Part shown: piece by piece, positions 1-28,546 of the stretch
Layout: each line of letters starts with the position of its first letter
Numbering within the stretch: position 1 is the stretch's first letter
DNA from: Candidatus Latescibacterota bacterium
GTDB lineage: Bacteria > Latescibacterota > UBA2968 > GCA-2709665
DNA: 64,000 nucleotides
Direction: 5' to 3'
Assembly: GCA_965208835.1 (NCBI GenBank)
Contig: OZ242358.1
Span: forward strand, 1,184,001 to 1,248,000
Position numbers and translations under genes: made by a program
The notes under the pieces: generated by a model
Told to the model about the DNA's origin: nothing
What the model saw: the letters and a program-made list of their open reading frames with translations, nothing else
Database searches by the model: none

Positions 1-44
1 GAATGAAGAATCGTCGCACACGGAAACTACGGATTGGAAACGAC

Positions 45-2670: not shown

Positions 2671-2676
2671 CTAACG

Positions 2677-6860: not shown

Positions 6861-7051
6861 CCTTGATTCGTAAGTCTTCGTGGACGTTAATTCGAATATG
6901 TGGATGTAAATAAAGGCGATTAGAAGGCGGATTACCAGGATACACCAGGTCACTGGACGTGAAGGAAAAAGACGTCCTTCTTTACGTCGACAACGCCCCG
7001 TTTCGGAGGGTTTTATCGCGTCGCCGCGTTGCTGTTTTTTTCGGATTGAGG
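6861..7051. mobile_element. MITE-like repeat family A, copy 2
   Basis: 191 bp, CCTTGATTCG...CGGATTGAGG, flanked by TTAA/TCAA. Confidence 0.85.
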
Positions 7052-7057
7052 TCAAGT

Positions 7058-9322: not shown

Positions 9323-11176
9323 ATGAGATTTCGAACACCGCACGCTTCGGCAACCATGATTGCCGTTGCCGGCCTGCTCGTGCTGGCCTGCGTCTGTACC
9401 AATGCGGCTCCCGCCCTCGCAGCGTGTCCGCTTCCTCCCGGCGTTACGCCTCCTGATAACCCCGGTGTGACGGCGCGACAGGTCGTAGACGGCAGCGCGA
9501 GCCTGGAGGAATTCGCGCTGGCCGCGAGAGATTTCTACAGGAGCGAGTCCCGGGGCCAAGCGACACTTGAACGAGCGGCATACCTCGGATGTCTCACCAG
9601 GCAGGACGATGGAGTCTGGCGTTCCGGTTCCACGTATATCGTGAGCCTGACGCCCGACGGAAGGGTGTTCATTCACGCTAAGGAGATGGCATTATCGGGC
9701 AGGTTGCTTAACCCCTTGGTTTATGGAGCGATCCTTTCTGGCTTGGGCGTATCCTCAGCCGATCTGGCCAACATGGCCTCACCGGACCCTGCTACCGCCG
9801 CCCGGGCATTTGGAGCTGTGATGGGCGTGTTGATGCAAGAGCCGGACGGCCCATTCGATGCGACCACACCTGTTCCTGGCCTGCGACCCGGCATACCAGG
9901 CGCCTCAGGCCATGCAAGCGTCTACTTCTCACTCAATTTCAAGAGCCCGATCGTGATACTCGCCGGTTTCGATCTCAATGAAACTCACGTGACTGAAGAA
10001 GACATCGATTTCGGCGACCCGTCCGTTACCGCCGAGGACGTGGTGGACCGCGGGACTTTGAAGGCCTTCGTCACGGAGGCGATGAATTACTTTCGCGCAG
10101 CCTACGAATCTGGAGGAATAAGTGCTATCTCGAAGGTCAGGACAGCCTTTCGGGATCCGAATGGGCCCTGGAGACACGGTTCGGTGTATCTCTACATCCT
10201 GGATCGCACCAGCAACACAATTCTGCTTCACGGCGCGTTTCCTAATAGATTCGAGCTACAGCCTCTGGTAGCGACTGTTCGCGATGTCGTGAGCGGACAT
10301 CTCGTTCTGCCGCAGGTAATCGAAGCGGCGGCCGGCAGCAGGGAAGGCGGCTTCGTGGAGTATTACTTTGACGACCCCAATGACGAAACCGACAGAGCCG
10401 ACATCCCGAAGGTGGGATACGCACGCGAGTTCACCGGTGAAATCCAACGGCCGGACGGAAGCGTTGTCCCAACTCACTATGTTATTGGGTCAGGTTTCTA
10501 CGGACGCGCTGCCGATGCTGCGACCGGTCCCGGCACGGTCGTGGAGGCCGCGGTGCTGGGCAACGCCGTCGAGGGGCTGGACGTGGCGTTTTCCCGCGCT
10601 ATTGCCGGTCGCCAGTCCGACTACGCCTGGAGTGCCGTCACCGATGCTGCCGGCCTTTTCACCCTGACGATCACCAGCAAGCATGGCGTGAGCGGTTACT
10701 ATCGTGCCCGGGCCACCAAACCCGACGGCGAGGTCGTGGGCCGCTGGAGCAGCATTCCCCTTAATGTCGATCAACGGCAGGTGTTGGAACTGACGTTGGG
10801 CGGCGGCGCTCGAGTTGTGCGGGTCCAGCCGCTGGCGGCATCCAGTCCTGAGGCAGCAGCCAAACCGGCGTTCTCGGCCGAGGCCGTGCCGGAGGCCAGC
10901 GGTCTGTCGCCCAATTCACCCAACCCGTTCAACAGCGCCACGCTGATCACGTACCATTTGTCGAGCCCGGGGCCGGTGACGCTGGTGATCTTCAACGTGC
11001 TGGGTCAGCCCGTAAGGACGCTGGTGGACGAGACCCGCGGGGCGGGCACGTATCATGTCAGGTGGGACGCGCGCGACGACGGCGGCGGCGGCGCGTTGCT
11101 GTCGACCGGGGTGTATATCGCCCGCCTGAACTATCCCGGCGGTGTATCGACGCAACGGCTTCTCTACCTCAAGTAA
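9323..11176 (+). CDS. Secreted tandem-Cache protein with C-terminal T9SS-type/FlgD sorting domain, paralog 1
   Basis: Signal peptide ending ALA; Cache-like motifs WRHGSVYLYILD, HGAFP, GGFVEYYFDDP, PKVGYA, IGSGFY; C-terminal NSPNPFNSAT...IFNVLGQPVRTLVD...WDARDD...GVYIARL. Confidence 0.85.
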   Translation: MRFRTPHASATMIAVAGLLVLACVCTNAAPALAACPLPPGVTPPDNPGVTARQVVDGSASLEEFALAARDFYRSESRGQATLERAAYLGCLTRQDDGVWRSGSTYIVSLTPDGRVFIHAKEMALSGRLLNPLVYGAILSGLGVSSADLANMASPDPATAARAFGAVMGVLMQEPDGPFDATTPVPGLRPGIPGASGHASVYFSLNFKSPIVILAGFDLNETHVTEEDIDFGDPSVTAEDVVDRGTLKAFVTEAMNYFRAAYESGGISAISKVRTAFRDPNGPWRHGSVYLYILDRTSNTILLHGAFPNRFELQPLVATVRDVVSGHLVLPQVIEAAAGSREGGFVEYYFDDPNDETDRADIPKVGYAREFTGEIQRPDGSVVPTHYVIGSGFYGRAADAATGPGTVVEAAVLGNAVEGLDVAFSRAIAGRQSDYAWSAVTDAAGLFTLTITSKHGVSGYYRARATKPDGEVVGRWSSIPLNVDQRQVLELTLGGGARVVRVQPLAASSPEAAAKPAFSAEAVPEASGLSPNSPNPFNSATLITYHLSSPGPVTLVIFNVLGQPVRTLVDETRGAGTYHVRWDARDDGGGGALLSTGVYIARLNYPGGVSTQRLLYLK

Positions 11177-11270
11177 CGCGAGAGCAAATTTAAAACTGCT
11201 TCTCAGAAAGAGGACAACCGTCCCACGTCACCCTGGTGAACCCGTTTTTCCTGGAAGGAGAATCGCTGAG

Positions 11271-13118
11271 ATGAAGATTCGAACATTGTTCACGTCGGCA
11301 TCCATGATTCCTGTTGTCGGGCTGCTCGCGCTGGCCAGCGTGCTTTCCACCGCACACCATGCAGAGGCGCAGGATCCTTGCCCGCTTCCTCCCGGTGTGA
11401 CTGCCCCGCCGGACCCGGCTGTGACGGCGCAACAGGTGGAAGAAGGCAGCGCCAGCCTGACCGAATTCGGACTGTCCACGAGAGACGCGTTCAGGAATCG
11501 CAGCCATGCGGAAGCGGTAACGAGCTTCGGGCAAATATCCTACTTCGGATGTCTCGTCAGGCGGGAGAACGGGCCGTGGCGCTCCGGTTCCACTTACGTC
11601 GTGATGTTGACGCCCAACGGCAGGGTGTTACTTCACTCGAAGGAAATGGCATTATCGGGCGGGCTGCTCAATCCCGCCATTTACGGAGCAATCCTCGCTT
11701 CGTTGGGCGTGTCCCTGTCGGATCTTGCCAATCTGGCGTCCCCGGATCCTGCTACCGCCGCCCAGGCGTTCGGCGCGGTCATGGCAGTTTTGTCGCAGGA
11801 ACCGGACGGCGTATTCGATGCGACCATCTCGATTCCGGGACGAACGCCAGGCATTCCGGGCGCCTCCGGCCATGCCAGCGCCTATGTCTCGGGCAGTGTA
11901 CGGCAGCCGTTCATCCTGCTCACCGGATTCGATCTCCAACGAATTCACCTGGCGCAGGAAGAGATCGACTACGGAGACCCGGCCGTTACGGCCATGGACG
12001 TGATGGACCGCGAATCCCTGAAGGCTTTCGTCAACGAAGCAGGACGGTACTGTATCGGACTCCAGGGGAGAGACGATATTGACAGAGCCAAGATTGCTCT
12101 GCGGGATCCCAACGGGCCCTGGAGACACGGTTCGGTGTACCTCTACGTCCTGGACCTTGTTTCGAACATCATCCTGATTCACGGCGCGTTTCCGGACAGA
12201 TTCGAGCTTAGACCCCTGACACCGACCGTCAAGGACGTCGTTACCGGAGAGTTCGTTCTGCCGCAGGTCCTCGAAGCAGCGAGGAGCAACCCGGAAGGCG
12301 GCTTCGTAGAGTATTACTTCGACGATCCCAATGACGACTCCGACAGCGCGGATATCCCAAAGGTCGGCTACGCCCGACAGTTCACAACTGAACTCGATAT
12401 TGGCGGACGGGTCATACCTCTCAATTTCATCATCGGATCGGGTTTTTATGGGCGTGCGGCCGATGTCGTGACGGGTCCCAGTACGGTCGTGGAGGCCACG
12501 GTGCTGGGTGATGCTGTGGAGGGGCTGGACGTTGAATTTTCCCGCGCTATCGCCGGTCGCCGGCCCGACTACGCCTGGAGTACCGTCACCGATGCTGCCG
12601 GCCTTCTAACGTTGACAATCTCCAGCCCGGATGGTGTGAGCGGTTACTACCGGGCCCGTGCCACGAACGCCGATGGCGACGTTATGGGCCGGTGGAGCAG
12701 CATTCCGCTCAATGTCAATCAACGGCAGGTTCTGGAATTGACACTGGGCGGCGGTGCGAGGGTCGTTCGTGTGCAACAGCTGGCTACAGACGCGCCGGTG
12801 GCTGCCGCCAAGCCTTCGTTCGCGGCAGAGGCCGTGCCGGTGGCCAGCGGACTTTCGCCAAATTCGCCGAACCCGTTCAACAGCGCCACGCTGATCACGT
12901 ACCACCTGGCCAGCCCGGGTCCGGCAAAGCTGGTGATCTACAATGTGCTGGGCCAGCCCGTACGGACGCTGGTGGATGAGGCCGGTGGGGCGGGCACCTA
13001 TCATGTGAGGTGGGACGCGCGCGACGACGGCGGCGCGTTGCTGTCGACGGGGGTGTATATCGCACGGCTGAGCTATCCCGGTGGGGTGCATACACAGCGA
13101 CTGCTGTACCTGAAATAG
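11271..13118 (+). CDS. Secreted tandem-Cache protein, paralog 2
   Basis: Same architecture; ATG 11271 after GAAGGAG aligns with the other paralog starts. Confidence 0.85.
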   Translation: MKIRTLFTSASMIPVVGLLALASVLSTAHHAEAQDPCPLPPGVTAPPDPAVTAQQVEEGSASLTEFGLSTRDAFRNRSHAEAVTSFGQISYFGCLVRRENGPWRSGSTYVVMLTPNGRVLLHSKEMALSGGLLNPAIYGAILASLGVSLSDLANLASPDPATAAQAFGAVMAVLSQEPDGVFDATISIPGRTPGIPGASGHASAYVSGSVRQPFILLTGFDLQRIHLAQEEIDYGDPAVTAMDVMDRESLKAFVNEAGRYCIGLQGRDDIDRAKIALRDPNGPWRHGSVYLYVLDLVSNIILIHGAFPDRFELRPLTPTVKDVVTGEFVLPQVLEAARSNPEGGFVEYYFDDPNDDSDSADIPKVGYARQFTTELDIGGRVIPLNFIIGSGFYGRAADVVTGPSTVVEATVLGDAVEGLDVEFSRAIAGRRPDYAWSTVTDAAGLLTLTISSPDGVSGYYRARATNADGDVMGRWSSIPLNVNQRQVLELTLGGGARVVRVQQLATDAPVAAAKPSFAAEAVPVASGLSPNSPNPFNSATLITYHLASPGPAKLVIYNVLGQPVRTLVDEAGGAGTYHVRWDARDDGGALLSTGVYIARLSYPGGVHTQRLLYLK

Positions 13119-13151
13119 CGTCGAACGGTTGGATAGATTGCCTTATCCCGG

Positions 13152-13218
13152 AGAACCCGTTTGGAATTGCCCCATTCAGCCTTTAGTTCGAGGCGTGCGG
13201 GGATTTCAGACGGGTTCT
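13152..13218 (+). repeat. Conserved ~66-bp hairpin after paralog 2 (probable terminator/3' RNA element)
   Basis: AGAACCCGT...ACGGGTTCT followed by a T-run; 33 bp after the stop. Confidence 0.75.
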
Positions 13219-13423
13219 TTTTTCGTGGCGGACACTCACTGAAAAAGCCTGATAACCAACAGGACCTGCTTGACCACGGTTTCCTTTGCGTGCGCTGAAC
13301 ACGGATGCTGTCGTGCGACCGCATTGCGAATTTCCAGATTGGGGTGCCGGATCCAGGAACTTCCGGCGGTCAGTTTGGCAACATCGGTACAATTCAGGAA
13401 GTATCGTAGACGGTATTTTTCGA

Positions 13424-13452
13424 TTGCATGACGGATGGAATGGTCTTAACAT
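13424..13452 (+). promoter_or_regulatory. Sigma70-type promoter of paralog 3
   Basis: TTGCAT-N17-TAACAT; same arrangement before paralogs 4-6. Confidence 0.7.
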
Positions 13453-13558
13453 GCGCGTCTGCAAGATTCGGTCCGTAGCGACAGTCTCATTTCTCAGAGC
13501 GAGGACAACCAGCCGCATTCACGCTAGAGAGCTTGTCTTTACGTGAGGGAGAACCGTC

Positions 13559-15403
13559 ATGACGAAAGTTCGAACACTGTTCACTTCGGCATCCATTATT
13601 CCTGTTGTCAGCCTGTTGGTACTGGCCGCCGTCTCTGCCCAGGCGCCTCCCGCCCTGGCATATTGTCCACCCCCACCCGGCGTGACTACCCCCGAGGAAC
13701 CGAGCGTGACGGCGCAGCAGGTGGAAGACGGAAGCGCAAGCCTGAAGGACTTCGCGCTGGCCTCGAGGGAACGATTTGTTATGCAGATCCAGACGGCTGA
13801 GAATCTGGGACAAGTGGTATACTATGGATGTCTCTTCCGGCAAGAGGGGAGCTTTTGGCATTCCGGTTCCACCTACCTCGTGATTCTGAGGGCCGATGGC
13901 AGTATTCTGATTCACGCGAAGAACATGGCATTGGCGAGCAGACGACTCAACCCCCTTGTCTATGCAGAGATCCTTTCTTCGTTGGGATTACCCTCAACCG
14001 TTCTGGGCAACCTGGCATCTCCCGATTCTGCTGTTGCCGCCCAGGCTAGTGCCGATGTCTTTGATATGTTGTCGCAAGGACCGGATGCCGCATTCGATGC
14101 GACCACCCCTATACCAGGCCTGCGACCCGGCATACCGGGTGCCTCCGGCTATGCCGCCGCATATTGGTCGGACTTCTTTAGAGGCCCGCTTGTGATGGTA
14201 GCCGGTTTCGAACTCGATGATACTCACCTGATTGAAGAAGAGATCGATCACATTACACCGGCCGTTTCCGCCAGGGACGTGGTGGATCGAGAAACCCTGA
14301 AGGCCTTCGTCACGGAGGCCGGGGAGTACTGTCTCGAACTTAGGAAAACCGGCAATTTCCCCGGTGGGATAGCCAGGATCGCCCTGCGGGATCCGAACGG
14401 GCCCTGGAGACACGGTTCCGTGTACCTCTATGTCTTGGATACGACCAGCAACATAATCCAGATACACGCTGCGTTTCCGAACAGATACGAGCTTCGACCT
14501 CTGATAGCCACCGTCCGGGACGCGGTTACCGGAAAACTCATACTTCCGCAGGTCATCGAAGCGGCGAAGAGTGACCCGGAGGGCGGCTTCGTGGAGTATT
14601 ACTTTGACGATCCCAATGACGACACCGACAGTGCCGATATCCCCAAGGTGGGATACGCACGCGAGTTCAAGACGAAAACCGAGTTAGGTGGAAGGGTAGT
14701 CCCATACAACTTCATTATCGGGTCGGGTTTTTATGGGCGCGCGCCCGAAGTCGCGACGGGTCCCAGAACGGTCGTGGAGGCCACGGTGCTGGGCGATGCG
14801 GTGGAAGGGCTGGACGTCGAGTTTTCCCGCGCCATCGCCGGCCGCGTTTCCAACTACGCGTGGAGTGCCGTCACCGATGCTGCAGGCCTTCTGTCGCTGA
14901 CCATCTCCGGCGCGGATGGCGTGAGCGGTTACTATCGAGCCCGCGCCACGAACGTGGATGGTGAGGTCGTCGGTCAGTGGAGCAGCATTCCTCTGAACGA
15001 AGGCCACCGACAGACCCTGGAACTAACGCTGGGCGGGGGCGCGAGGGTCGTACGGGTCACGTCGCTGGATGCGGCAGAGCCGGTGGCTGCCGCCAAGCCG
15101 GTTTTCGAAGCTGAGACTGTGCCGGAAGCCAGCGGTCTTTCACCTAATTCGCCCAATCCATTCAACAGCGCCACCGTGATCACCTACCACCTGTCCAGCG
15201 CGGGCCCGGTGCAACTGGTGATCTACAATGTGCTGGGTCAGCCCGTACGGACGCTCATGGACGAGTCCAGCGCGGCGGGCACTTATAAGGTCAGGTGGGA
15301 CGCACGTGACGAGTTTGGCGTCTCTCTGTCGACGGGAGTCTATATCGCACGCCTGAGCTATCCCGGTGGTGCGCAGACTCAGCGGCTGCTGTACCTCAAA
15401 TAG
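13559..15403 (+). CDS. Secreted tandem-Cache protein, paralog 3
   Basis: Same architecture, intact 614 aa. Confidence 0.85.
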   Translation: MTKVRTLFTSASIIPVVSLLVLAAVSAQAPPALAYCPPPPGVTTPEEPSVTAQQVEDGSASLKDFALASRERFVMQIQTAENLGQVVYYGCLFRQEGSFWHSGSTYLVILRADGSILIHAKNMALASRRLNPLVYAEILSSLGLPSTVLGNLASPDSAVAAQASADVFDMLSQGPDAAFDATTPIPGLRPGIPGASGYAAAYWSDFFRGPLVMVAGFELDDTHLIEEEIDHITPAVSARDVVDRETLKAFVTEAGEYCLELRKTGNFPGGIARIALRDPNGPWRHGSVYLYVLDTTSNIIQIHAAFPNRYELRPLIATVRDAVTGKLILPQVIEAAKSDPEGGFVEYYFDDPNDDTDSADIPKVGYAREFKTKTELGGRVVPYNFIIGSGFYGRAPEVATGPRTVVEATVLGDAVEGLDVEFSRAIAGRVSNYAWSAVTDAAGLLSLTISGADGVSGYYRARATNVDGEVVGQWSSIPLNEGHRQTLELTLGGGARVVRVTSLDAAEPVAAAKPVFEAETVPEASGLSPNSPNPFNSATVITYHLSSAGPVQLVIYNVLGQPVRTLMDESSAAGTYKVRWDARDEFGVSLSTGVYIARLSYPGGAQTQRLLYLK

Positions 15404-15435
15404 CGCCAGAAGGTCAGGCGGGAAACCCTCTCCTT

Positions 15436-15501
15436 AGAACCCGTCCGGAAACACCCGATAGGCCTTGATTTCAAGGCCATAGGGGTTCTCAGACGGGTTC
15501 T
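15436..15501 (+). repeat. Conserved hairpin after paralog 3
   Basis: AGAACCCGT...GGCCTTGA-tt-TCAAGGCC...ACGGGTTCT; 32 bp after the stop. Confidence 0.75.
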
Positions 15502-15629
15502 ATTCGAATCAACCGAAGACCTGCTCCGGTCCAGAATACGACATAAGTAACAGGCAATCAACACGTTAAAGAAATCGTGGCCCGACGAGAAGGCAATAAT
15601 AACAAGGCGATCGTCGGCGGTTTTTTTAT

Positions 15630-15658
15630 TTGCATGCCGGGCAGAATTCCTTTAACAT
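15630..15658 (+). promoter_or_regulatory. Sigma70-type promoter of paralog 4
   Basis: TTGCAT-N17-TAACAT. Confidence 0.7.
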
Positions 15659-15763
15659 GCCAACTTGGGCGCACGGTCCGAAGCGTTTACCCGATATCTC
15701 AAAAAGAGGACAACCAGTAGTTGCCACGTCAGTGAGCGATTTTTCTCGAGAGGGAGATCCGTT

Positions 15764-17572
15764 ATGAAGAAAGCTCGAACACCGTTAATATCGGCATCCA
15801 TAATTCCTGTTGTCAGCCTCTTGGCGCTCGTCGCCGTCTTTGCCAACGCGGGTTCCTCCGTTGCTCAGGATCGGGGAGAATGCGTACTCCCTGAAGGCGT
15901 GACCCCTCCGGCGGACCCAAGCGTGACCGCGCAACAGGTGGAAGACGGAAGCGCTACCTTGAAAGAATTCGGGTTGGAAGCAAGAAATCGATTCAGTCAA
16001 GGGGCAGGTTCTCGTGAACTGCAACTGTACGTCGGTTGCGTCCTGCGGCAAGAGGGGAGCCATTTGAACTCCGGTTCCACATATCTTGTGCAATTGACGC
16101 CTGATGGAAGGGTGTTTATTCACGCGAAAAATATGGCGCTGTCGGGAAGGTTGCTCAATCGCCTGATTTATGGAACTATTCTTCGAGCATTGGAAATCGA
16201 TTTGGCTGGATTGCAGGACGATCCTGCCGCGTTAACGGCTGCCTTCATTGAGGCTGCAGGCAGGGATGGCGGCGAGTTCAACATGCCTGCTATCCCAGGG
16301 GCTTCAGGCTATGCCGCTGTCTACTTTTCGAGAAATTTCAGACTCCCTATTGTGTTGCTTGCCGGATTCGACCTCAACGAGTCCCACCTGGTCGAAGAGG
16401 AAATCGACTATGGTATTCCCGCCGTTACTGCAAGTGAAGTGGTGGACAGGTAAACTCTAAAAGCCTTTGTTACCCAGGCAGGGGAGGCTTTTCTCAATCA
16501 GCAGAAGGGAGGCGACCTGTCCGCGACCTCGAAGGCCAGAGTGGCCTTGAGAGACCCGAATGGGCCCTGGAGACACGGTTCCGTATACCTCTATGTCCTG
16601 GATCTAACAAGCAACATCATCCTGTTCCACGGCGCGTTTCCTGACCTGTACGAACTGCGGCCTCTGATAGCGACCGTCCGGGACGTGGTTACCGGAGAGC
16701 TTGTTTTGCCGCAGGTCATCGAGGCGGCGAAAAGCAGCCCGGATGGCGGCTTCGTGGAGTATTACTTTGACGATCCCACTGACGACACGGACAGCGCAGA
16801 TATCCCCAAAGTGGGTTATGCCCGTCAGTTTACCGGTCAACGCGAGAGAGAAGACGGGACTGTACTTCCTATAAATTTCATCGTCGGGTCAGGATTTTAC
16901 GGACGCGCGCCCGATGTTGTCGCAACGGGTCCCAGTACGGTCGTTGAGGCCACGGTACTGGGGGACGCGGTGGAGGGACTGGACGTCGAGTTTTCCCGCG
17001 CCATCGCCGGACGTCAGTCCGAGTACGCGTGGAGCGCCGTCACCGATGCTGCCGGCATTCTGTCGCTGACCATCTCCAGTGCGGATGGGGTGAGCGGTTA
17101 CTATCGTGCCCGGGCCACCAATGCCGATGGCGAGGTCGTGGGCCGGTGGAGCAGTATACCTCTGACCGAAGGCCGCCGCCAGGCCCTGGAACTGACGCTG
17201 GGCGGGGGCGCGAAGGTCGTACGGGTCGCGTCGCTGTCTGCGGCGGAGCTGGTGGCTGCCGCCAAGCCGGTTTTCGAAGCTGAGACTGTGCCGGAAGCCA
17301 GCGGTCTTTCACCTAATTCGCCCAATCCATTCAACAGCGCCACCGTGATCGCCTACCACCTGTCCAGCGAGGGTCCGGTGCAACTGGTGATCTATAATGT
17401 GCTGGGTCAGCCCGTACGGACGCTGGTGGATGAGACCCGCGGGGCGGGCAGGTATCAAGTCAAGTGGGACGCGCGCGACGACGGTGGCGCGTTGCTGTCA
17501 ACCGGAGTGTATATTGCCCGCCTGAGCTATCCTGGCGGCGTGCAGACGCAACGGCTGCTCTACCTGAAATAG
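15764..17572 (+). pseudogene. Secreted tandem-Cache protein, paralog 4, with in-frame nonsense codon
   Basis: VVDR-TAA(16451-16453)-TLKAFVTQAG continues in the same frame; most paralogs have VxDRE, so GAA>TAA. Confidence 0.85.
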
Positions 17573-17604
17573 CGCCAGTCATCGAAGCAGAACGTGATAG
17601 TTTG

Positions 17605-17671
17605 AGAACCCGTTTGGAAACGCCCCATATAGCCTTGAGTACGAGGCTTGCGGTGTTTACGGACGGGTTCT
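17605..17671 (+). repeat. Conserved hairpin after paralog 4
   Basis: AGAACCCGT...ACGGGTTCT; 32 bp after the stop. Confidence 0.75.
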
Positions 17672-17805
17672 TCCTTTTGGGGTGTGAAGGCGGACGATCG
17701 TACCGAAAACCTTTAGTTGCGGCAACGGGTCAAGGGCCGCCAGGCGGTCATGCCGTCCCGATCGTGGACAAAGACGCAAAGACGCAAGGGATCGTGACAT
17801 TTTCG

Positions 17806-17834
17806 TTGCATAAAGAGTCGAACCCACTTAATTT
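17806..17834 (+). promoter_or_regulatory. Sigma70-type promoter of paralog 5
   Basis: TTGCAT-N17-TAATTT. Confidence 0.65.
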
Positions 17835-17938
17835 ACACATTCGTGCGATTCGGTCCCAGGCGACAGCCTCATATCACAGAGAGGGTAGGCAGCCGCAGAT
17901 ACGCTACTGAGCCCGGCTCTCCAGGAGGGAGAACCGTC

Positions 17939-19789
17939 ATGAAGGAAATTCGAACATCGTCCACTTCGGCATCCATAATTCCTGTTGTCGGCCTGCTGAT
18001 GCTGGCCGGCGTCTTTTTCGATCCGGGTCCCGCCGCGGCACAGGGGCTGGGAGATTGCGTACTCCCTGAAGGCGCGAATCCACCCACTGAACCGCATACG
18101 ACGGCGCAGGACGTTGAGAACGGCAGCGCAACCCTGAAGGACTTCGCGCTGGCCGCGAGAGATCAGTTCAAGGTGGGATCTCCAACTCCGGAAGAAGCGT
18201 TCTACTTCGGATGTCTCGTCAGGCAGGAGGGGAGCCATTGGCGTTCCGGTTCCACCTACATCGTGTCAATGCTGGCCGACGGAAGGGTGTTCGTTCACGC
18301 AAAGGATATGGCACTGTCGGGCAGGCTGCTCAACCCTGTAATATACGGAACGATCCTCGCCGCGCTGGGCGTATCTCCAGGCGATCTGGCCAATTTGGCT
18401 TCTCCGGATCCCGCTGTCGCCGCCCAGGCTTTCGGCGCCGTCATGGGCACATTGATGCAGGAACCGGATGGCGCATTCGATGCGACCGCCCCGATTCCAG
18501 GTCTGTCGCCCGGTATACCGGGCGCCTCCGGCTATGCCGCCGTATATTTATCGGGCAATTTCGCGCTTCCGGTTGTAATGCTCGTCGGATTTGACATCAA
18601 TGAAACTCACTTGGCTAAAGAAGACATCGATTACGGCGCCCCTGCCGTCGCCGCCGAGGACGTGGTGGACCGGGAATCCCTGAAGGCCTTCGTCACGCAA
18701 GCGGGAGAATTCATCCTCGAACTCCAGAAGACCGGCGATCTGGCCGCTTCCTCGAAACTCAGGATCGCCCTGCGGGACGCGGACGGACCCTGGAGACACG
18801 GTTCCGTTTACCTTTACGTCCTGGACCTTACCAGCAACATCATCCTGTTCCACGGCGCGTTTCCGGACAGATTCGAGCTGCGGCCTCTTGTCGCGACCGT
18901 CAAGGACGCGGTTACCGGTCAGCTCGTTCTGCCGCAGGTCATCGAGGCGGCGAAGAGCAGCCCGGAAGGCGGCTTCGTGGAGTATTATTTCGACGATCCC
19001 ACCGACGACACGGACAGTGCCGATATTCCCAAGGTGGGCTACGCCCGCGAGTACCACGGGGAATTTGACACAGGCCAACGCATACTCAGACTCAACTTCA
19101 TTGTCGGTTCAGGATTCTACGGGCGCCCGGCCGATGTCGGGACAGGTCCCAGCACGGTCGTGGATGCTACGGTGCTGGGCGACGCGGTGGAGGGGCTGGA
19201 CGTAGACTTTTCTCGCGCCATCGCCGGGCGCCAGTCCGAATACGCGTGGAGTGCGGTCACCGATGCTGCCGGCCTGTTCACCCTGACGATCTCGGGTGAA
19301 AATGACGTGACCGGTTACTACCGGGCCCGGGCCACGAACGCCGACGGAGAGGTCGTGGCCCGGTGGAGCAGCATACCTCTGAATGAGGGCAGGCGCCAGG
19401 TTCTCGAACTGACGCTGGGCGGAGGTGCGAGGGTCGTACGGGTCCGAGAGCTGACTACCGCCGAGCCGGTGGCTGCTGCCAAACCGGTTTTCGAAGCCGA
19501 GACCGTGCCGGAAGCCAGTGGTCTGTCGCCGAATTCGCCCAACCCGTTCAACAGCGCCACCGTGATCACTTACCGTATTTCCAGCGCGGGTCCCGTGAAA
19601 CTGGTGATCTACAATGTCCTGGGTCAGCCTGTACGGACGCTGGTGGATGAGTCCCGCGGGGCGGGCAGCTATCAGGTCAGGTGGGATGCGAAAGACGACG
19701 GTGGCGCGACGCTGTCGACCGGGGTGTATATCGCCCACCTGAGCTATCCCGGCGGTGCGCAGAACCAGCGACTGCTGTATCTCAAATAA
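17939..19789 (+). CDS. Secreted tandem-Cache protein, paralog 5
   Basis: ATG 17939 after GGAGGGAGAACCGTC; intact. Its TAA stop is formed at the repeat B1 insertion junction. Confidence 0.85.
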   Translation: MKEIRTSSTSASIIPVVGLLMLAGVFFDPGPAAAQGLGDCVLPEGANPPTEPHTTAQDVENGSATLKDFALAARDQFKVGSPTPEEAFYFGCLVRQEGSHWRSGSTYIVSMLADGRVFVHAKDMALSGRLLNPVIYGTILAALGVSPGDLANLASPDPAVAAQAFGAVMGTLMQEPDGAFDATAPIPGLSPGIPGASGYAAVYLSGNFALPVVMLVGFDINETHLAKEDIDYGAPAVAAEDVVDRESLKAFVTQAGEFILELQKTGDLAASSKLRIALRDADGPWRHGSVYLYVLDLTSNIILFHGAFPDRFELRPLVATVKDAVTGQLVLPQVIEAAKSSPEGGFVEYYFDDPTDDTDSADIPKVGYAREYHGEFDTGQRILRLNFIVGSGFYGRPADVGTGPSTVVDATVLGDAVEGLDVDFSRAIAGRQSEYAWSAVTDAAGLFTLTISGENDVTGYYRARATNADGEVVARWSSIPLNEGRRQVLELTLGGGARVVRVRELTTAEPVAAAKPVFEAETVPEASGLSPNSPNPFNSATVITYRISSAGPVKLVIYNVLGQPVRTLVDESRGAGSYQVRWDAKDDGGATLSTGVYIAHLSYPGGAQNQRLLYLK

Positions 19790-19943
19790 TGTCCTGTCCC
19801 AAAAATATCTCACCATTCGGTCGCCGATTCATCCCGTCTCGCTGCGTTGCCTTCGCTCGCCGACCTTACGCAGGTCGGTGGCGCCTTGCGAGCCGGGCGA
19901 CTCGACGGCCGAATTCAGGCAACCTATTTCTGGGACAGAACAG
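19789..19943 (+). mobile_element. MITE-like repeat family B, copy 1
   Basis: 155 bp, TIRs ATGTCCTGTCCC...GGGACAGAACAG, TA duplicated (19787-88 and 19944-45). Homologous to 36802-36963 and 45667-45828. Confidence 0.88.
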
Positions 19944-19978
19944 TAGCGCCACACGGTAAGGCAGGAAGGGTTTTTCTG

Positions 19979-20044
19979 AGAACCCGTCCGGAAACACCCG
20001 AATAGCGTTGAACACGAGGGTTGCGGGTTCTTCGGGCGGGTTCT
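19979..20044 (+). repeat. Conserved hairpin after paralog 5
   Basis: AGAACCCGTCCG...CGGGCGGGTTCT; 32 bp after the displaced TAG at 19944-19946. Confidence 0.75.
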
Positions 20045-20169
20045 CTTCGATTCAACCGAATACCTCCGTCGGCTCAGGACACTAGGTAGGACGTATTCAA
20101 CACGCAGAAGAAAGCCCCGCCCGAATTGAAGGCATTGATTGCAAACTGATCGCAGAAAGTCTTTTTAAT

Positions 20170-20198
20170 TTGCATAACCGGTGAATTTTAATTAATAT
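20170..20198 (+). promoter_or_regulatory. Sigma70-type promoter of paralog 6
   Basis: TTGCAT-N17-TAATAT. Confidence 0.7.
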
Positions 20199-20304
20199 CC
20201 CCGTTCGTATGATCGGTCCCGGGCGGTGGGCCGATGTTTCAGAGAGAAGAAAATCAGCCGTGGTCGCCGTTGCGGCCTTGTCTTTAACGGGAGGGAGAAC
20301 TGAT

Positions 20305-22169
20305 ATGATAAAGTTTCGAACACTGTTCGCGCAGGCAAACGTGAATCCGGTTGTCGGTCTGCTCGTTCTGGCCGTCGTCTTGTCATTCGTACGTCCGGCC
20401 GTGGCAGTTTGTCCGCTTCCCCCGGGCGTGACGGCCCCCGACGACCCCGCTGTGACCGCGCAGCAGGTGGTAGACGGCAGCGCCACCCTCAAGGAGTTTT
20501 CTCTGGCAGTAAGAGAGCGGTCCAGAGAATACGCCAAGGGGGCCGCGGCCACGGAACAAGCCGTATATATCGGATGCATCATAAGGCTGGACGATGGGAT
20601 CTGGCGTTCGGGTTCCACCTACATCGTGAGCCTGACGCCTGACGGCAGGATATACATTCACGCGAAGGACATGTCGTTGACGGGCAGGTTGCTAAACCCG
20701 GTGGTTTATGGAGCGATCCTTTCAGCGCTGGGCGTATCCCTATCTGATCTGGCGAATCTGGCGTCTCCCGATCCTGCGACTGCCGCACAGGCTTTCGGCG
20801 CTGTCATGGGCACATTGGCGCAGGAACCTGACGGCGCGTTCGATGCGACCGGTCCTGTTCCGGGTCTATCGCCAGGTATACCGGGCGCTTCGGGCCATGC
20901 CGCCGTCTATATCGAGCCCAATGTAGGGGGGGCTCCGATTGTAATGCTCATGGGTTTCGATCTCAATGAATCTCACCTGGTCCCATTAGCGATGAAGTCA
21001 TCGATTACGGCGACCCGGCCGTCACTGCCAGGGACGTGGTGGATCGCGAATCCCTGAAGGCCTTTGTTACCCAGGCTGGAAATTACTTTCTTGAACTTCA
21101 GAATTCCGGGGATTTCGCCGCTATTGCGAAAGCCAGGATCGCCTTGCGGGATCCGAACGGCCCGTGGAGACACGGTTCCGTGTACCTCTACGTTCTGGAT
21201 CTTGTCAGCAACATCATCATATTTCACGCGGCGTTCCCTGACAGATACGAGTATCGTCCTCTGATACCGACCGTCACCGACGCCGTGACAGGCGAGTTCA
21301 TCCTGCCGCAGGTCATCGAGGCGGCGAAGGGCAGCCCTGATGGCGGCTTCGTGGAGTATTACTTCGACGATCCCACCGACGACACCGACAGCGCCGATAT
21401 CCCCAAGGTGGGATACGCCCGTGAGTTTGCCGCTGAAATTCGGCGGCCGGACGGAAGCACAATCCCGGCCGACTTCATCGTCGGTTCGGGCTTCTACGGG
21501 CGCGCGGGCGAGGTTGCCACGACGGATCCCAGCACGGTCGTGGAGGCCACCGTGCAGGGTGACGCGGTAGAGGGGTTGGACGTGGCATTTTCCCGCGCCA
21601 TTGCCGGGCGCGGGTCCGATTATGCCTGGAGCGCCGTCACCGATCCTGCCGGCCTGTTCTCCCTGACCATCTCCAGCGCGGATGGCGTGAGTGGTTACTT
21701 TCGGGCCCGGGCCACCAACGCCGATGGCGAGGTCGTGGGCCGTTGGAGCAGCATACCCCTGAATGAAGGCCGCCGCCAGGTTCTGGAACTGACGTTGGGC
21801 GGCAACGCACGGGTCGTAGGTGTCGAAGCCCTGGCCTCATCCAGGTCTGAGGCCGCCGCCAAGCCGGCGTTTGCGGTCGAGGCCGTGCCGGAAGCCAGCG
21901 GTCTGGCGCCCAATTCGCCGAACCCATTCAACAGCGCCACGCTGATCACCTACCATCTGTCCGGCGCGGGTCCTGTGAAGCTGGTGATCTACAATGTGTT
22001 GGGCCAGCCCGTACGGACGCTTGTGGATGAGTCCCGTGCGGCGGGCACGTATAAGGTCAAATGGGATGCGCGCGACGAGGGTGGCGCGTTACTGTCGACA
22101 GGTGTGTATATCGCCCATCTGAGCTATCCCGGCGGTGTGCAGTCGCAACGGCTGCTGTACCTCAAGTAG
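20305..22169 (+). pseudogene. Secreted tandem-Cache protein, paralog 6, frameshifted (or sequencing error)
   Basis: ORFs 20209-21057 and 21036-22169 join if one base is added at GTCCCATT (20980-20987), restoring HLVPISDEVIDYGDPAVTARDVVDRES. Confidence 0.8.
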
Positions 22170-22200: not shown

Positions 22201-22266
22201 AGAACCCGTTCGGAATCACCCCGTGAGCCATGCGCCCTGGGCTTGCACGGATTTCGAACGGGTTCT
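22201..22266 (+). repeat. Conserved hairpin after paralog 6
   Basis: AGAACCCGTTCGGAATC...GATTTCGAACGGGTTCT followed by TTTT; 31 bp after the stop. Confidence 0.75.
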
Positions 22267-22675: not shown

Positions 22676-23779
22676 TTGGGCGAACCCGTGGTATTGCTTC
22701 GTGAAGGACCGTTGAAATTCCACGTGTTCAGGGGAAGCTCCGTCGAGATGGGCCGGGCTCATGGTTCTCTTGACCCGGAGTTTCTCCGATCGCGGCTGGA
22801 CGAATGGCTGACGTGGCCTCACGATTTCGATCACCCGTATTTTCGGAAGAACATGGCGTTCATGCGGCGCGAGTTTCCGGATTTCATCGAACGCATGGAA
22901 GCTTACGGCGCGGCGGCGGGTATCGACAACTTCGATCACACCTACTATCTGCACATGGTCGACACCGGCCGAGAGCAAGAAGCATGTTCCGCGTTCGGAA
23001 TCCTGCTGAGCGACGATGGGCCGGCCCTGCTGCGAACCTACGACCCTTCTGATTCCACCGGGACGAGCTACTTTGTCAGGGATCGCTTCGTGGCGGCGTT
23101 TCCGGATTGCCGCCCGCACGGATACCTCGGCATGGGCGGGCATCACTTCTGTGTCGTACATACCTCAGTCAACGACGCCGGCCTGCTTACGGGATGGGCT
23201 TCGGGGGCGCCGAAATTCCATTGGCCCGACAACCCGGAACACGTCAATCTCTTTCAGATCACCGGACTCGTGCCACAGCATTGCGGTGACTGCGAGGACG
23301 TGAGGCGGTTTCTCAACGAATACCGGATTTCCGGGCTGAAAGGGCTGACCGGCACGTCCGTGGACGCCAGGGGTAACATACTCGGTATCGAACTGGAATC
23401 TGAGAATATCGCATTTCGCGAACCCGAAAATGACATGGTACTGGAGGTGAACCACTGGCAGCATCCCGACCTCCAGCGCCTGGCACGGAAGAGAAAACCG
23501 GAATTCTGGACGAGCCCCTATTACTACAATTCACAGAACCGCGTGCAGTACGTGGAATACCACCGGGACAGGTTCCTGCGGATGTCCACACTCGAAGAGC
23601 TGATTGACTTTACGTTCGACGTGCACGCTCCCGGTCGAATCCTGCAGATGCCGGACGCCAACATTGCCAACTGGATGACCTCGCATGCGATCTATATGAC
23701 TGCCGCCGACCGGAGAATGCGGGTACACCCGTATCCGCTTGATAAAGACAGATACACCGAAGTCGCATATCTCGGTTGA
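22676..23779 (+). CDS. C45 family Ntn-hydrolase/amidase
   Basis: GSSVEMGRAHG, A|CSAFG, SVNDAGL, VNHW; TTG start after GAGGAG. Confidence 0.7.
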   Translation: MGEPVVLLREGPLKFHVFRGSSVEMGRAHGSLDPEFLRSRLDEWLTWPHDFDHPYFRKNMAFMRREFPDFIERMEAYGAAAGIDNFDHTYYLHMVDTGREQEACSAFGILLSDDGPALLRTYDPSDSTGTSYFVRDRFVAAFPDCRPHGYLGMGGHHFCVVHTSVNDAGLLTGWASGAPKFHWPDNPEHVNLFQITGLVPQHCGDCEDVRRFLNEYRISGLKGLTGTSVDARGNILGIELESENIAFREPENDMVLEVNHWQHPDLQRLARKRKPEFWTSPYYYNSQNRVQYVEYHRDRFLRMSTLEELIDFTFDVHAPGRILQMPDANIANWMTSHAIYMTAADRRMRVHPYPLDKDRYTEVAYLG

Positions 23780-27958: not shown

Positions 27959-28546
27959 ATGCTCCCCGATCCTTCCCTCTACATCTCCGATCTGGATGGC
28001 ACACTTCTGGATAGAGAAACGACTCTGTCCCGATACAGCAAGGATACGCTCAACGCGCTGATGGATCAGGGTCTGCTATTCACCGTGGCCAGCGCACGCA
28101 GTGTCGCCTCCATGCGCCACGTGCTGGCTGGCCTGCGCCTTTGTTTGCCGGTCGTTGAAGTCAACGGCGCCTTCGTCTCCGATCTGGCTGGCGGTCGGCA
28201 CTATGTGGTCCACGAACTGCACCGCGATATTCTGCCCGGATTGTGGCAGCAAATCACCGACGCGGGCTACCTGCCCTTCATCTCCACGTACGACGGAACG
28301 GCAGATCGTTGTTACTACCGCGATGTCACCAATGACGGCATGGCATGGTACGTGAGAAACAGGAAGCTTAACCAGGACCCGCGAATGCACTATCTGCACG
28401 ACCTGGAGCGCGGCCTGGAAGAGCAGGTGGTCAGTCTGAGGGTCATTGGAACGGGACGGGAAATGGAGGAACCTGCATTGGTCGCGTACTTCAGTTCTCG
28501 ACTGCAAAGAGAATCTTGTAAAGCACTGGCACGAACAGCAAGGTGA
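27959..28546 (+). pseudogene. Truncated Cof-type HAD hydrolase
   Basis: SDLDGTLL, ASAR and NGA present; motifs III/IV (K, GDxxND) absent. The frame runs into the 3' end of the convergent RND gene. Confidence 0.7.

What the first reader, a model, noticed from the sequence alone, without database searches (positions are those of the whole stretch)
9323..22169. Six-gene tandem array of secreted double-Cache proteins with no signalling output
Seen: each ~615-aa unit is signal peptide + two Cache-like modules + ~100-aa beta-sandwich + PNPFN/FlgD-type sorting domain, with no second transmembrane helix, HAMP, kinase or MCP domain. No partner receptor or transporter is adjacent. Knowledge: Cache domains normally sense small molecules for membrane receptors, and PNPFN-type C-termini mark T9SS-like export in FCB bacteria. 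Inference: a diversified repertoire of exported or surface ligand-binding proteins (scavengers, decoys or host-interaction binders). This is the best candidate here for an undescribed system.
Basis: partly seen in the sequence, partly recalled or inferred. Interest (0 to 1): 0.88.

Follow-up and report, generated by a model that had tools for sequence, protein, structure and literature searches.

The report
Exported double-Cache protein gene array
Six neighbouring copies (two of them broken) of a gene for an exported protein made of two sensor-type "Cache" binding modules with no signalling part; very different bacteria share this little-studied family, and each mounts it on its own surface-export device.

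Summary
The six tandem + strand units at 9323-22169 are real paralogues (57-77% identical to unit 1). Only four are intact: unit 4 has an in-frame TAA and unit 6 a frame break. Each unit has one N-terminal hydrophobic signal segment, two homologous sCache_2-like modules, an all-beta spacer and a T9SS type-A sorting domain (TIGR04183 above cut-off in 3 of 3 tested). The core model has pLDDT 90 and its best Foldseek matches are the chemoreceptor sensor domains 4K08, 5G4Y and 2QHK. No HAMP, kinase or MCP domain was found, and no second clear membrane segment. New here: the family is large. The ~365-aa double-Cache core recurs at 45-85% identity in bins labelled as seven or more phyla. There it sits on other C-terminal parts: an autotransporter beta-barrel in Proteobacteria-type bins, LRR repeats in an Opitutales bin, and unknown C-termini in Acidobacteriota. 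The array occupies a syntenic locus holding 2-6 copies in related Latescibacterota bins. The same spacer+sorting cassette carries LRR, WD40, pentaxin and other interaction domains on other proteins. Export is well supported. Ligand binding and a role in host or partner interaction are inferred. The family has only generic database names, and I found no paper describing it.

The parts
9323..11176 (+). g1, intact paralogue (617 aa): signal segment, Cache module 1, Cache module 2, beta-sandwich, T9SS sorting domain
   Evidence: ORF. Pfam dCache_2 23.7 bits and FlgD_ig 21.8 bits. TIGR04183 35.1 bits against cut-off 23. All four domains found by tblastn.
11271..13118 (+). g2, intact paralogue (615 aa). 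The start is taken at the ATG behind the conserved GGAG motif. Only 94 nt lie after g1, with no hairpin between them.
   Evidence: Nearest orthologue is L003:7703-9562, 93% nt.
13559..15403 (+). g3, intact paralogue (614 aa), used as reference. Signal 13559-13660; module N1 13661-14263; module N2 14264-14758; beta-sandwich 14759-15073; linker 15074-15163; sorting domain 15164-15400.
   Evidence: Pfam dCache_2 30.7 bits (above cut-off 26.5) and FlgD_ig 31.9. TIGR04183 35.8. AlphaFold models with pLDDT 84.1 (full length) and 90.1 (core). Foldseek.
15764..17572 (+). g4, paralogue interrupted by an in-frame TAA at 16451-16453, at the start of module N2. It also has a shorter helical insert in N1.
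   Evidence: The orthologue L012:12222-14028 (87% nt) has a different break, near its 5' end.
17939..19789 (+). g5, intact paralogue (616 aa)
   Evidence: (TIGR04183 31.5 bits).
20305..22169 (+). g6, paralogue with a frame break at 20983-20990 in the N1-N2 linker. The two halves are ORFs 20209-21057 and 21036-22169.
   Evidence: The orthologue L012:14666-16520 is broken at the same spot. dN/dS between the two is 0.19 (N half) and 0.17 (C half).
13152..13218 (+). Conserved ~66-nt hairpin about 33 nt after the g2 stop; terminator-like, followed by a T run
   Evidence: Pattern found 4 times against 0 in shuffles. RNA fold -39.6 kcal/mol, z -5.5.
15436..15501 (+). Same hairpin element after g3
   Evidence: Fold -40.4 kcal/mol, z -6.9.
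17605..17671 (+). Same hairpin element after g4
   Evidence: Fold -41.7 kcal/mol, z -6.8.
19978..20045 (+). Diverged copy of the hairpin element after g5. It departs from the exact search pattern.
   Evidence: Alignment. Fold -39.2 kcal/mol, z -2.9.
22201..22266 (+). Same hairpin element after g6, at the end of the array
   Evidence: Fold -38.2 kcal/mol, z -4.8.

Best explanation
This is a tandem array of paralogous genes, four intact and two disrupted, for non-signalling Cache proteins that are exported out of the cell.

Proposed route and mechanism:
- The protein crosses the inner membrane by a cleavable Sec-type signal (inferred from sequence).
- Its C-terminal type-A sorting domain hands it to a type IX secretion system (domain shown; machinery not seen).
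- It ends up on the cell surface or in the medium (inferred).
- The working part is a ~365-aa core of two tandem sCache_2-like modules that arose by internal duplication (shown). Such modules bind small molecules in chemoreceptors (known).
- With no transmembrane helix or output domain, binding cannot be passed on as a signal. The core therefore acts as a binder in its own right.
- Module 2 is nearly invariant across the family and probably holds a common ligand or contact. Module 1 is the most diverged part and probably tunes specificity (inferred).

The core behaves as a portable cassette. Bins labelled as at least seven phyla carry it, and only the Latescibacterota/'Gemmatimonadota' forms have the T9SS domain. 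Elsewhere it sits on an autotransporter barrel, LRR repeats or unknown C-termini. In this lineage the same spacer+sorting cassette also exports LRR, WD40, pentaxin, LDL-receptor-B and Calx-beta proteins.

The most likely role is surface recognition or binding of a molecule of a shared, probably host-associated, habitat.
For: Architecture.

Cache fold:
- The core model has pLDDT 90.1 and pTM 0.87.
- Foldseek against the PDB gives 7 matches at E<=0.001. The best single-domain ones are the sCache_2 sensor domains 4K08, 5G4Y and 4EXO/2QHK (prob 1.00, TM on target 0.62-0.65, 19-23% identity).
- The Atlas nearest clusters (score 0.95-0.96) are Cache/sCache_2.
- The two modules are homologous: hhalign prob 97.8%, E 1e-12 over 80 columns.

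No output domain:
- No signalling Pfam appears in the 8 window pieces.
- None appears in the precomputed Pfam of 120 + 120 listed relatives.

Export:
- TIGR04183 is above cut-off in 3 of 3 proteins tested.
- The sorting domain is under constraint (dN/dS 0.21).
- Of 102 core copies, 64 carry the T9SS domain. All 64 are in Latescibacterota (44), 'Gemmatimonadota' (12), window (5) or unlabelled (3) rows. None of the 25 rows of other phyla has it.
- The autotransporter beta-domain PF03797 is above cut-off in L046, L043, L059, L058, L031 and L040:7034-9580.
- The core is fused to LRR in Opitutales L032.

Cassette sharing: 15 of 15 proteins that match only g3 residues ~373-614 (spacer and sorting domain; 6 of them the sorting domain only) carry FlgD_ig, and 13 have interaction-type N-terminal domains.

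Exchange between phyla: the tree holding the 25 non-Latescibacterota/Gemmatimonadota rows together is rejected (dlnL 420, p-AU 1e-64). Those rows are nested among Latescibacterota clades.

Family size: 1429 and 1285 clusters at E<=1e-3.

Precedent: passages of PMC7848895 report Cache domains enriched in sponge-associated archaea and propose surface recognition.
Against: - No ligand, pocket or binding was tested. PDB sequence searches gave no usable alignment, so binding residues could not be mapped.
- Pfam Cache scores are mostly below the curated cut-off: 5 of 6 for dCache_2 and all for sCache_2.
- No T9SS machinery gene lies in the window, and the rest of the genome could not be searched.
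- Two of the six copies are broken here, and 8 of 104 in all loci, so individual copies are dispensable.
- Labels of bins can be wrong, and the AU group was named after the tree was seen.
- The habitat is not known from any call; the host-association idea rests on the kinds of co-exported domains and on recall.
Confidence: 0.6

Rival explanations
1. Nutrient-capture proteins. The surface-displayed Cache modules trap a scarce small metabolite outside the outer membrane and pass it to an uptake system encoded elsewhere. This would be analogous to hemophores or SusD-type surface binders.
For: The closest structural matches are sensor domains whose PDB titles refer to carboxylic-acid recognition or small amides. 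Versions with three cores in one polypeptide (L031, L035, L036) and gene arrays would raise capture capacity. A TonB-dependent receptor lies next to the Bryobacterales copy in L049.
Against: No transporter is conserved next to the gene in the 10 loci of other phyla examined; the TonB receptor appears in 1 of 10. None is adjacent in the window. The proteins sharing the export cassette are protein-interaction domains, not nutrient binders.
Confidence: 0.2
2. Trans-acting co-receptors. The free Cache protein binds a ligand and then docks on a membrane sensor encoded elsewhere, as solute-binding proteins do for some chemoreceptors and kinases.
For: More than 90% of Cache domains are fused to signalling modules, according to passages of bioRxiv 10.64898/2026.02.01.703092. 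A sensory role would therefore be the default for the fold.
Against: T9SS sorting domains and autotransporter barrels place the core outside the outer membrane, away from inner-membrane sensors. No sensor gene is conserved nearby. None of the 240 listed relatives has an output domain.
Confidence: 0.07
3. An extracellular enzyme built on a Cache-like scaffold. The many invariant H, D, E, K, R and Y residues of module 2 would form an active site rather than a binding pocket.
For: Module 2 is unusually conserved. Its invariant columns across 30 sequences include H269, E277, D287, Y313, D316, D317, D320, D323, K329 and R334. dN/dS is 0.22.
Against: No enzyme family was hit in Pfam, NCBIfam or the PDB. 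The closest structural matches are sensor domains. The conserved Y, H and K positions and the G-x-Y C-terminal motif resemble the sCache_2 pattern; this resemblance is recalled and was not mapped.
Confidence: 0.07
4. An abundant surface-coat or decoy protein. Its main role would be structural or protective, for example masking the cell from phages, grazers or host cells, with copy loss and gain driven by that pressure.
For: Copy number at the syntenic locus varies from 2 to 6 among related genomes. Disrupted copies occur: 8 of 104, with 3 of 4 in L012 and 2 of 6 here. Each unit has its own promoter-like region and terminator-like hairpin.
Against: All domains are under purifying selection, with no sign of diversifying selection. 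Paralogues are old and have conserved orthologues. No simple-sequence tracts were noted at the four frame breaks I looked at.
Confidence: 0.06

Closest known systems
sCache_2 ligand-binding domains of chemoreceptors (PDB 4K08 Adeh_3718, 5G4Y, 2QHK/4EXO, TlpB 3UB7/3UB8)
   Same: The fold matches: N-terminal helices followed by an antiparallel sheet with a helical insert after strand 2. Location is extracytoplasmic. There are weak Pfam dCache_2/sCache_2 matches on module 2.
   Different: There are no flanking transmembrane helices and no MCP, kinase or HAMP output. Two modules stand in tandem. A sorting domain sends the protein out of the cell. Sequence similarity to solved structures is undetectable by HMMER.
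Stand-alone sCache_heme proteins (DUF3365/Tll0287 family; bioRxiv 10.64898/2026.02.01.703092, passages read)
   Same: These are Cache-fold proteins with no fused signalling module and no signalling gene neighbour. That paper calls this organisation highly unusual for Cache.
   Different: That family binds c-type heme through CXXCH. None of the six units has CXXCH. Those are single-module proteins, and that text mentions no secretion domain ('secreted' 0 and 'autotransporter' 0 occurrences).
T9SS type-A cargo proteins (TIGR04183; structural matches to PorU 6ZA2 and the RgpB C-terminal domain 5AG8)
   Same: Both have an N-terminal signal, a cargo, an Ig-like spacer, and a C-terminal beta-sandwich sorting domain above the NCBIfam cut-off.
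   Different: The cargo is a double Cache core, not a protease, glycosidase or adhesin. The host is a Latescibacterota-type organism whose T9SS I could not inspect.
Classical (type Va) autotransporters
   Same: Relatives in bins labelled Alphaproteobacteria, Deltaproteobacteria/Myxococcota, Thermodesulfobacteriota and Ectothiorhodospiraceae carry the same core in front of a PF03797 beta-domain above cut-off. NCBI names them 'autotransporter domain-containing protein'.
   Different: The passenger is a globular double Cache core rather than the usual beta-helix (recalled). The window's own genes have no barrel.
Eukaryotic alpha2-delta calcium-channel subunits (Cache domains outside the cell without a prokaryote-type output)
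   Same: These are extracellular Cache modules. That they serve as binding parts rather than as sensor inputs of a signalling protein is recalled. Weak Foldseek matches to 7VFS_B, 8IF3_A and 8X90_B were seen.
   Different: The matches are low (TM 0.07 on target). The proteins have a different overall architecture (VWA plus dCache), and no homology is claimed.

Membership tests
Cache superfamily (sCache_2 / dCache_2 Pfam families) | Match to the family HMM at or above the curated cut-off | tested here: inconclusive
   dCache_2 scores 20.0-30.7 bits in 6 of 6 pieces that hold module 2. Only g3 (30.7) passes the 26.5 cut-off. sCache_2 scores 12.0-17.3 bits, all below 25. Module 1 has no hit. Relatives L052 and L061, which carry extra modules, score 85.8 and 111.8 bits.
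Cache superfamily (sCache_2 / dCache_2 Pfam families) | PDC/Cache fold: N-terminal helices, then an antiparallel sheet with an insert between strands 2 and 3 | tested here: met
   The core model has pLDDT 90.1 and both modules show that element order. Foldseek hits 4K08, 5G4Y and 4EXO/2QHK have prob 1.00 and TM on target 0.62-0.65. Atlas clusters score 0.95-0.96. Module 1 is homologous to module 2.
Cache superfamily (sCache_2 / dCache_2 Pfam families) | Extracytoplasmic location | tested here: met
   There is a single N-terminal hydrophobic segment with an A-x-A-type end, and a pair of conserved Cys in the mature part. This rests on sequence only; no signal-peptide predictor was available.
Cache sensor domains of signalling receptors | Flanked by membrane helices and coupled to an output module (MCP, kinase, GGDEF and the like) | tested here: not met
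   No output Pfam was found. There is no second clear hydrophobic segment: weak windows in g2, g5 and g6b lie on modelled strands. None of the 240 listed relatives has an output domain.
dCache (single bimodular domain with one long stalk helix) | Membrane-distal and membrane-proximal modules threaded on one long N-terminal helix | tested here: inconclusive
   The model shows two successive complete modules, each with its own N-terminal helices (H28-45/H49-59 and H210-230/H238-243 in core numbering). The modules are homologous to each other. This looks like tandem sCache, but no coordinates could be inspected.
Cache ligand-binding domains | Binds a small-molecule ligand in the module pocket | not testable with these tools
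   No residue-level alignment to a liganded structure could be obtained.
T9SS type-A cargo | C-terminal sorting domain matching TIGR04183 at the extreme C-terminus | tested here: met
   Scores are 35.1, 35.8 and 31.5 bits against cut-off 23 for g1, g3 and g5 (3 of 3 tested; g2, g4 and g6 were not submitted). Pfam Por_Secre_tail is below cut-off at 15.4-18.5 bits. A beta-sandwich is modelled at 539-612.
T9SS type-A cargo | Genome encodes the T9SS machinery (PorV/PorU/SprA/GldKLMN-type genes) | not testable with these tools
   None lies among the window's annotated ORFs.
sCache_heme (DUF3365/Tll0287) | CXXCH heme-binding motif | tested here: not met
   CXXCH is absent in all six units.
Type Va autotransporter (relatives only, not the window genes) | C-terminal PF03797 beta-domain | tested here: met
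   L046 31.6, L043 29.4, L059 42.3, L058 29.0 and L031 32.3 bits, and L040:7034-9580 31.3 bits, against cut-off 26. The window's six units have none.

The most novel reading that the evidence does not exclude
The double-Cache core is a habitat-wide, horizontally traded surface-recognition module. Co-resident bacteria of at least seven phyla have each bolted the same binder onto their own C-terminal device: a T9SS tail, an autotransporter barrel, LRR repeats or others. They do so to recognise or hold one molecule of a shared animal host or community. By recall, not checked, several bin labels look like marine-sponge microbiome series. Module 1 variants in tandem arrays would give a small repertoire of specificities. 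That would be the first use of Cache modules as displayed adhesin- or lectin-like binders rather than as sensor inputs. It would also be a new class alongside the eukaryote-like repeat proteins of symbionts.
Probability: 0.3. Interest if true: 0.85.

Novelty: new variant of a known kind. Interest (0 to 1): 0.68.

Why it matters
Cache is the largest family of extracellular sensor domains in prokaryotes, and it is almost always wired to a signalling output. Here a large family has cut that wire and sends the modules out of the cell. The family has over a thousand 90%-identity clusters and only generic database names. The same core has been re-mounted on different C-terminal devices in different phyla.

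That gives a clean natural experiment in modular protein export. It also marks a molecule that many unrelated bacteria apparently need to bind. Finding the ligand would say what these organisms compete for or recognise.

The core is small, folds confidently in prediction and could be expressed, so the question is directly testable.

Tried and rejected
Searches that found nothing:
- Sequence searches of the PDB with g3 and with profiles of either module found nothing usable. Searches gave 0 hits; one search gave one chance hit at E 1.6. Ligand-binding residues therefore could not be mapped.
- Foldseek with the full-length model was dominated by Ig-like matches to the C-terminal domains and said nothing about the core. 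I refolded the core alone.
- Rfam found nothing in the window.
- NCBIfam named none of the C-terminal regions of the Acidobacteriota-type relatives. For L032 it gave only generic LRR matches.
- A conserved partner gene was looked for in 44 neighbouring ORFs of 10 loci from other phyla. None recurred.

Ideas dropped:
- Phase variation by simple repeats was considered after finding broken copies. I rejected it as a general feature: 8 of 104 copies are disrupted, and no repeat tracts were noted at the four frame breaks I looked at.
- The 'up_ok' flag gave false alarms; it flagged the intact g3. One search replaced it.
- A lipoprotein anchor was considered. Only g1 has an L-A-A-C box, and it is not conserved.
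- Heme binding was rejected because there is no CXXCH.

Literature:
- 'Cache domain' + autotransporter + passenger: 0 papers.
- 'Versatilivorator': 0 papers.
- sponge + symbiont + 'Cache domain': 3 papers, one relevant.
- Searches gave background listings only.

Not run: no complex-prediction job, because no protein-protein binding is claimed.

Not checked:
- The collections metagenome contigs and viral contigs (closed).
- T9SS genes elsewhere in the genome.
- Isolation sources of the bins.
- Supplementary files of any paper.


Full report
WHAT IS THERE

Between 9323 and 22169 the + strand carries six head-to-tail units of one gene family.
- A tblastn scan with the four domains of unit 3 finds each domain six times, in order, and nowhere else in the 64-kb window.
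- Start codons were fixed from a conserved GGAG/GGGAG motif and 5' leader that precede every unit.
- The units are g1 9323-11176, g2 11271-13118, g3 13559-15403, g4 15764-17572, g5 17939-19789 and g6 20305-22169.
- Four are intact (614-617 aa).
- g4 has an in-frame TAA at 16451-16453, where the paralogues read E.
- g6 changes frame at 20983-20990, in the linker between the two modules.
- Against g1, the other units are 57-77% identical.

Units g2 to g6 are each followed, about 33 nt after the stop, by a conserved ~66-nt hairpin.
- The pattern occurs 4 times against 0 in 100 shuffles.
- The folds reach -38 to -42 kcal/mol, with z -4.8 to -6.9. The diverged copy after g5 has z -2.9.
- A conserved upstream region follows each hairpin.
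- The units therefore look like separate transcription units. Only g1 and g2, 94 nt apart without a hairpin, could share a transcript.

DOMAIN ANATOMY

A 19-residue hydropathy scan finds one strong hydrophobic segment per protein, at residues ~4-37.
- It follows a K/R-rich start and ends in an A-x-A-like motif.
- The few other windows over the threshold fall on modelled beta strands.
- Two Cys (36 and 91 in g3) are present in all six units, and neither is part of a CXXCH motif.

The AlphaFold model of g3 (39-row alignment, pLDDT 84.1) shows these elements:
- a helix at 13-26;
- module 1 at 52-215;
- module 2 at 244-392;
- an all-beta domain at 403-502;
- a low-confidence linker at 507-534;
- a C-terminal beta-sandwich at 539-612.

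Family scans give the following.
- Pfam sees dCache_2 on module 2 in 6 of 6 pieces (20.0-30.7 bits, cut-off 26.5; only g3 passes).
- FlgD_ig is above cut-off in 5 of 6.
- Pfam sees nothing on module 1 and no signalling domain.
- NCBIfam TIGR04183, the T9SS type-A sorting domain, scores 31.5-35.8 against a cut-off of 23 in g1, g3 and g5. These were the only three submitted.

ARE THE MODULES CACHE?

The core alone (g3 residues 35-400, 30-row alignment) folds with pLDDT 90.1 and pTM 0.87.
- Foldseek against the PDB gives 7 matches at E<=0.001.
- The best single-domain matches are the sCache_2 sensor domains 4K08, 5G4Y and 4EXO/2QHK (prob 1.00, TM on target 0.62-0.65, 19-23% identity).
- TlpB (3UB7/3UB8) follows further down.
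- The ESM Atlas places the core next to clusters named Cache/sCache_2, at scores of 0.95-0.96.
- A profile-profile comparison shows that module 1 and module 2 are homologous (97.8%, E 1e-12, 80 columns).

So the core is an internal duplication of an sCache_2-like module, not shown to be a classical single-stalk dCache. PDB sequence searches found nothing, so I could not map ligand-binding residues.

THE FAMILY ELSEWHERE

The family is large.
- There are 1429 clusters at E<=1e-3 among the 8000 candidates scored with g3.
- There are 1285 with the core of an alphaproteobacterial relative.
- Among 50%-identity representatives, 175 reach E<=1e-30.
- Source names are only 'T9SS type A sorting domain-containing protein', 'autotransporter domain-containing protein' or 'hypothetical protein'.
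- None of the 120 + 120 listed relatives has a signalling Pfam domain in its precomputed annotation.

A scan of one genome per species returned 136 relatives, of which the best 80 (62 loci) were kept.
- Full-length matches come from bins labelled Candidatus Latescibacterota or Gemmatimonadota, often several loci per genome.
- Bins labelled Opitutales, Alphaproteobacteria/Paracoccaceae, Deltaproteobacteria, Thermodesulfobacteriota, Ectothiorhodospiraceae, Acidobacteriota and others match only g3 residues ~1-400/450.
- Per-module identity there is 45-78% for module 1 and 64-94% for module 2.

What follows the core differs by phylum.
- A PF03797 autotransporter beta-domain above cut-off follows it in L046, L043, L059, L058 and L031 and in L040:7034-9580. 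These proteins end in the aromatic residue typical of outer-membrane barrels (the rule is recalled).
- LRR repeats follow it in Opitutales L032.
- Unnamed C-termini follow it in the Acidobacteriota-type proteins.
- Some 'Gemmatimonadota'-labelled proteins string three cores in front of one barrel (L031, L035, L036).
- Of 102 core copies, 64 are followed by the T9SS domain. All 64 are in Latescibacterota (44), Gemmatimonadota (12), window (5) or unlabelled (3) rows. None of the 25 rows of the other five phyla has it.

EVOLUTION

A maximum-likelihood tree was built from 102 cores (g6 left out because of its break; quick search, LG+G4).
- Each window paralogue sits nearer to orthologues in other genomes than to its neighbours. 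Examples are g2 with L003 at 97% and g1 with L016 at 91%.
- The duplications are therefore old.
- The copies from other phyla are scattered among Latescibacterota clades. Both Opitutales copies lie inside such clades. An Acidobacteriota trio lies within a well-supported clade (SH-aLRT 98) that also holds the g3 clade.
- The barrel-bearing clade with Pseudomonadota, Myxococcota and Thermodesulfobacteriota rows is sister to another Latescibacterota clade.

Holding the 25 non-Latescibacterota/Gemmatimonadota rows together costs 420 log-likelihood units (p-AU 1e-64).
- The group was named after seeing the tree.
- Bin labels can be wrong.
- Old paralogy with losses is not excluded.
- The phylum-specific C-terminal parts do argue that these are resident genes, not mis-binned contigs.

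Among the six window copies all domains are under purifying selection (Nei-Gojobori dN/dS).
- dN/dS is 0.29 for module 1, 0.22 for module 2, 0.18 for the spacer and 0.21 for the sorting domain.
- Divergence falls from 5' to 3': dS is 1.35 in module 1 and 0.48 in the sorting domain.
- Module 1 is thus the most diverged part. The 3' end is either homogenised or more constrained.

The array sits at a syntenic locus in several related genomes, and copy number there varies.
- A ceramidase-like gene lies upstream in L004, L012 and L017.
- Remnants of a C45/AAT-like gene, a cyclase-like gene, an unknown gene and an AAA gene lie downstream in L003, L012, L016 and L027. L004 keeps only the AAT-like gene, at full length.
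- Copy numbers are 5 (L003), 4 (L012), at least 4 (L017), 3 (L004, L027) and 2 (L016), against 6 here.

THE EXPORT CASSETTE IS SHARED

Representatives that match only g3 residues ~373-614 (52-61% identical) were scanned with Pfam.
- Nine match from the spacer through the sorting domain; six match the sorting domain only.
- 15 of 15 have FlgD_ig at the C-terminus.
- 13 carry other N-terminal cargo. These are LRR (5), WD40 propellers (6), PD40 with pentaxin/Laminin_G_3 (1), and LDL-receptor class B/NHL with Laminin_G_3 (1). Calx-beta accompanies LRR in one protein.
- Two have no named cargo.
- The double-Cache core is thus one of many interaction-type domains that this lineage exports with the same spacer+tail.

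Domains of that kind are discussed as eukaryote-like proteins of animal-associated symbionts. For this I have only the listing plus recall. Passages of PMC7848895 report Cache domains enriched in sponge-associated archaea and propose them as surface recognition candidates. I did not establish the habitat of the window or of any bin.

HOW IT MOST LIKELY WORKS

- Shown: the architecture; the Cache fold of the core; the absence of any output domain; a sorting domain above its curated cut-off; the different C-terminal parts in other phyla; purifying selection.
- Inferred: Sec export and signal cleavage; T9SS transit and surface attachment or release; ligand binding by the modules, with module 2 constant and module 1 tuning specificity; a role in recognising a host- or community-derived molecule.

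I put 0.6 on the composite statement that this is an exported, non-signalling binder family acting at or beyond the cell surface. About 0.9 of my belief is on 'exported double-Cache family' alone. The rivals are nutrient capture (0.2), trans-acting co-receptor (0.07), enzyme (0.07), and coat or decoy (0.06).

COMPARISON AND NOVELTY

It works like a Cache ligand-binding domain that has been detached from signalling.
- Stand-alone Cache proteins are known only as an unusual case. The sCache_heme family is one, and there over 90% of Cache domains are said to be fused to outputs (passages).
- The present family lacks the heme motif and adds secretion devices.
- I found no paper on Cache modules as autotransporter passengers or T9SS cargo. 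The searched library does not cover subscription journals.
- I rate it a new variant of a known kind.

UNEXPLAINED

g6 and its closest orthologue (L012:14666-16520, 84% nt) are both frame-broken at the same linker position, but differently.
- Yet dN/dS between them is 0.19 and 0.17 for the two halves, the same as for intact pairs at 0.19-0.22.
- Possible causes are independent recent hits at a fragile spot, assembly error, gene conversion from intact paralogues, or a tolerated break. None was tested.
- Over all loci, 8 of 104 copies are disrupted.

LEFT OPEN

- T9SS genes in the genome.
- Isolation sources.
- The closed collections (metagenome and viral contigs).
- Any experimental evidence.

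Noticed in passing
window 20983-20990 and L012:15339-15351: g6 and its closest orthologue are frame-broken at the same linker position by different insertions. Both halves still show dN/dS of 0.17-0.19 between the two genomes, as intact pairs do. In L012, 3 of 4 copies are disrupted.
   Followed up: partly
window 13152-13218, 15436-15501, 17605-17671, 19978-20045, 22201-22266: A conserved ~66-nt nested hairpin sits ~33 nt after the stops of g2-g6. The outer arms are kept while the inner stem differs in sequence between copies and still pairs. It is probably a terminator or RNA-stabilising element duplicated along with each gene.
   Followed up: partly
window 45855-54413: A likely corrinoid-dependent methyl-transfer cluster: a GntR/FCD regulator (- strand), a URO-D-like methyltransferase, a B12-binding protein, a RACo-type reductive activase, an MTHFR-like protein and a pterin-binding protein.
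   Followed up: no
window 28491-35093 (- strand): An RND efflux operon: an AcrB-type pump, a membrane-fusion protein, and an unusually long (790 aa) outer-membrane factor. No link to the array was found.
   Followed up: no
window 2647-3750 and 22676-23779; 6959-8485 and 41333-42658: Two C45/AAT-like genes and two ceramidase-like genes. One of each lies beside the array (ceramidase-like 6959-8485 just upstream, AAT-like 22676-23779 just downstream). These flanks are syntenic in related genomes, while the copy number of the array between them varies.
   Followed up: partly
P0177-P0226; L032:9959-12913 and 13441-16416: The spacer+T9SS-tail cassette of this family is also attached to LRR, WD40, pentaxin/Laminin_G, LDL-receptor-B/NHL and Calx-beta proteins. 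An Opitutales bin has two neighbouring genes with the Cache core fused to plant-type LRR repeats.
   Followed up: partly
window 3-782 and L046:5784-6728: A PhyH-family dioxygenase lies within ~9 kb upstream of the family gene both in the window and in an alphaproteobacterial locus. This may be coincidence.
   Followed up: no
window 39027-41357: An amino-acid permease is fused to two universal-stress-protein domains (776 aa).
   Followed up: no
L031, L035, L036: 'Gemmatimonadota'-labelled bins encode 1443-1886-aa proteins with three double-Cache cores in series. An autotransporter barrel was confirmed for L031, and L035 and L036 share its C-terminal sequence. This is an intragenic counterpart of the gene array seen here.
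   Followed up: partly
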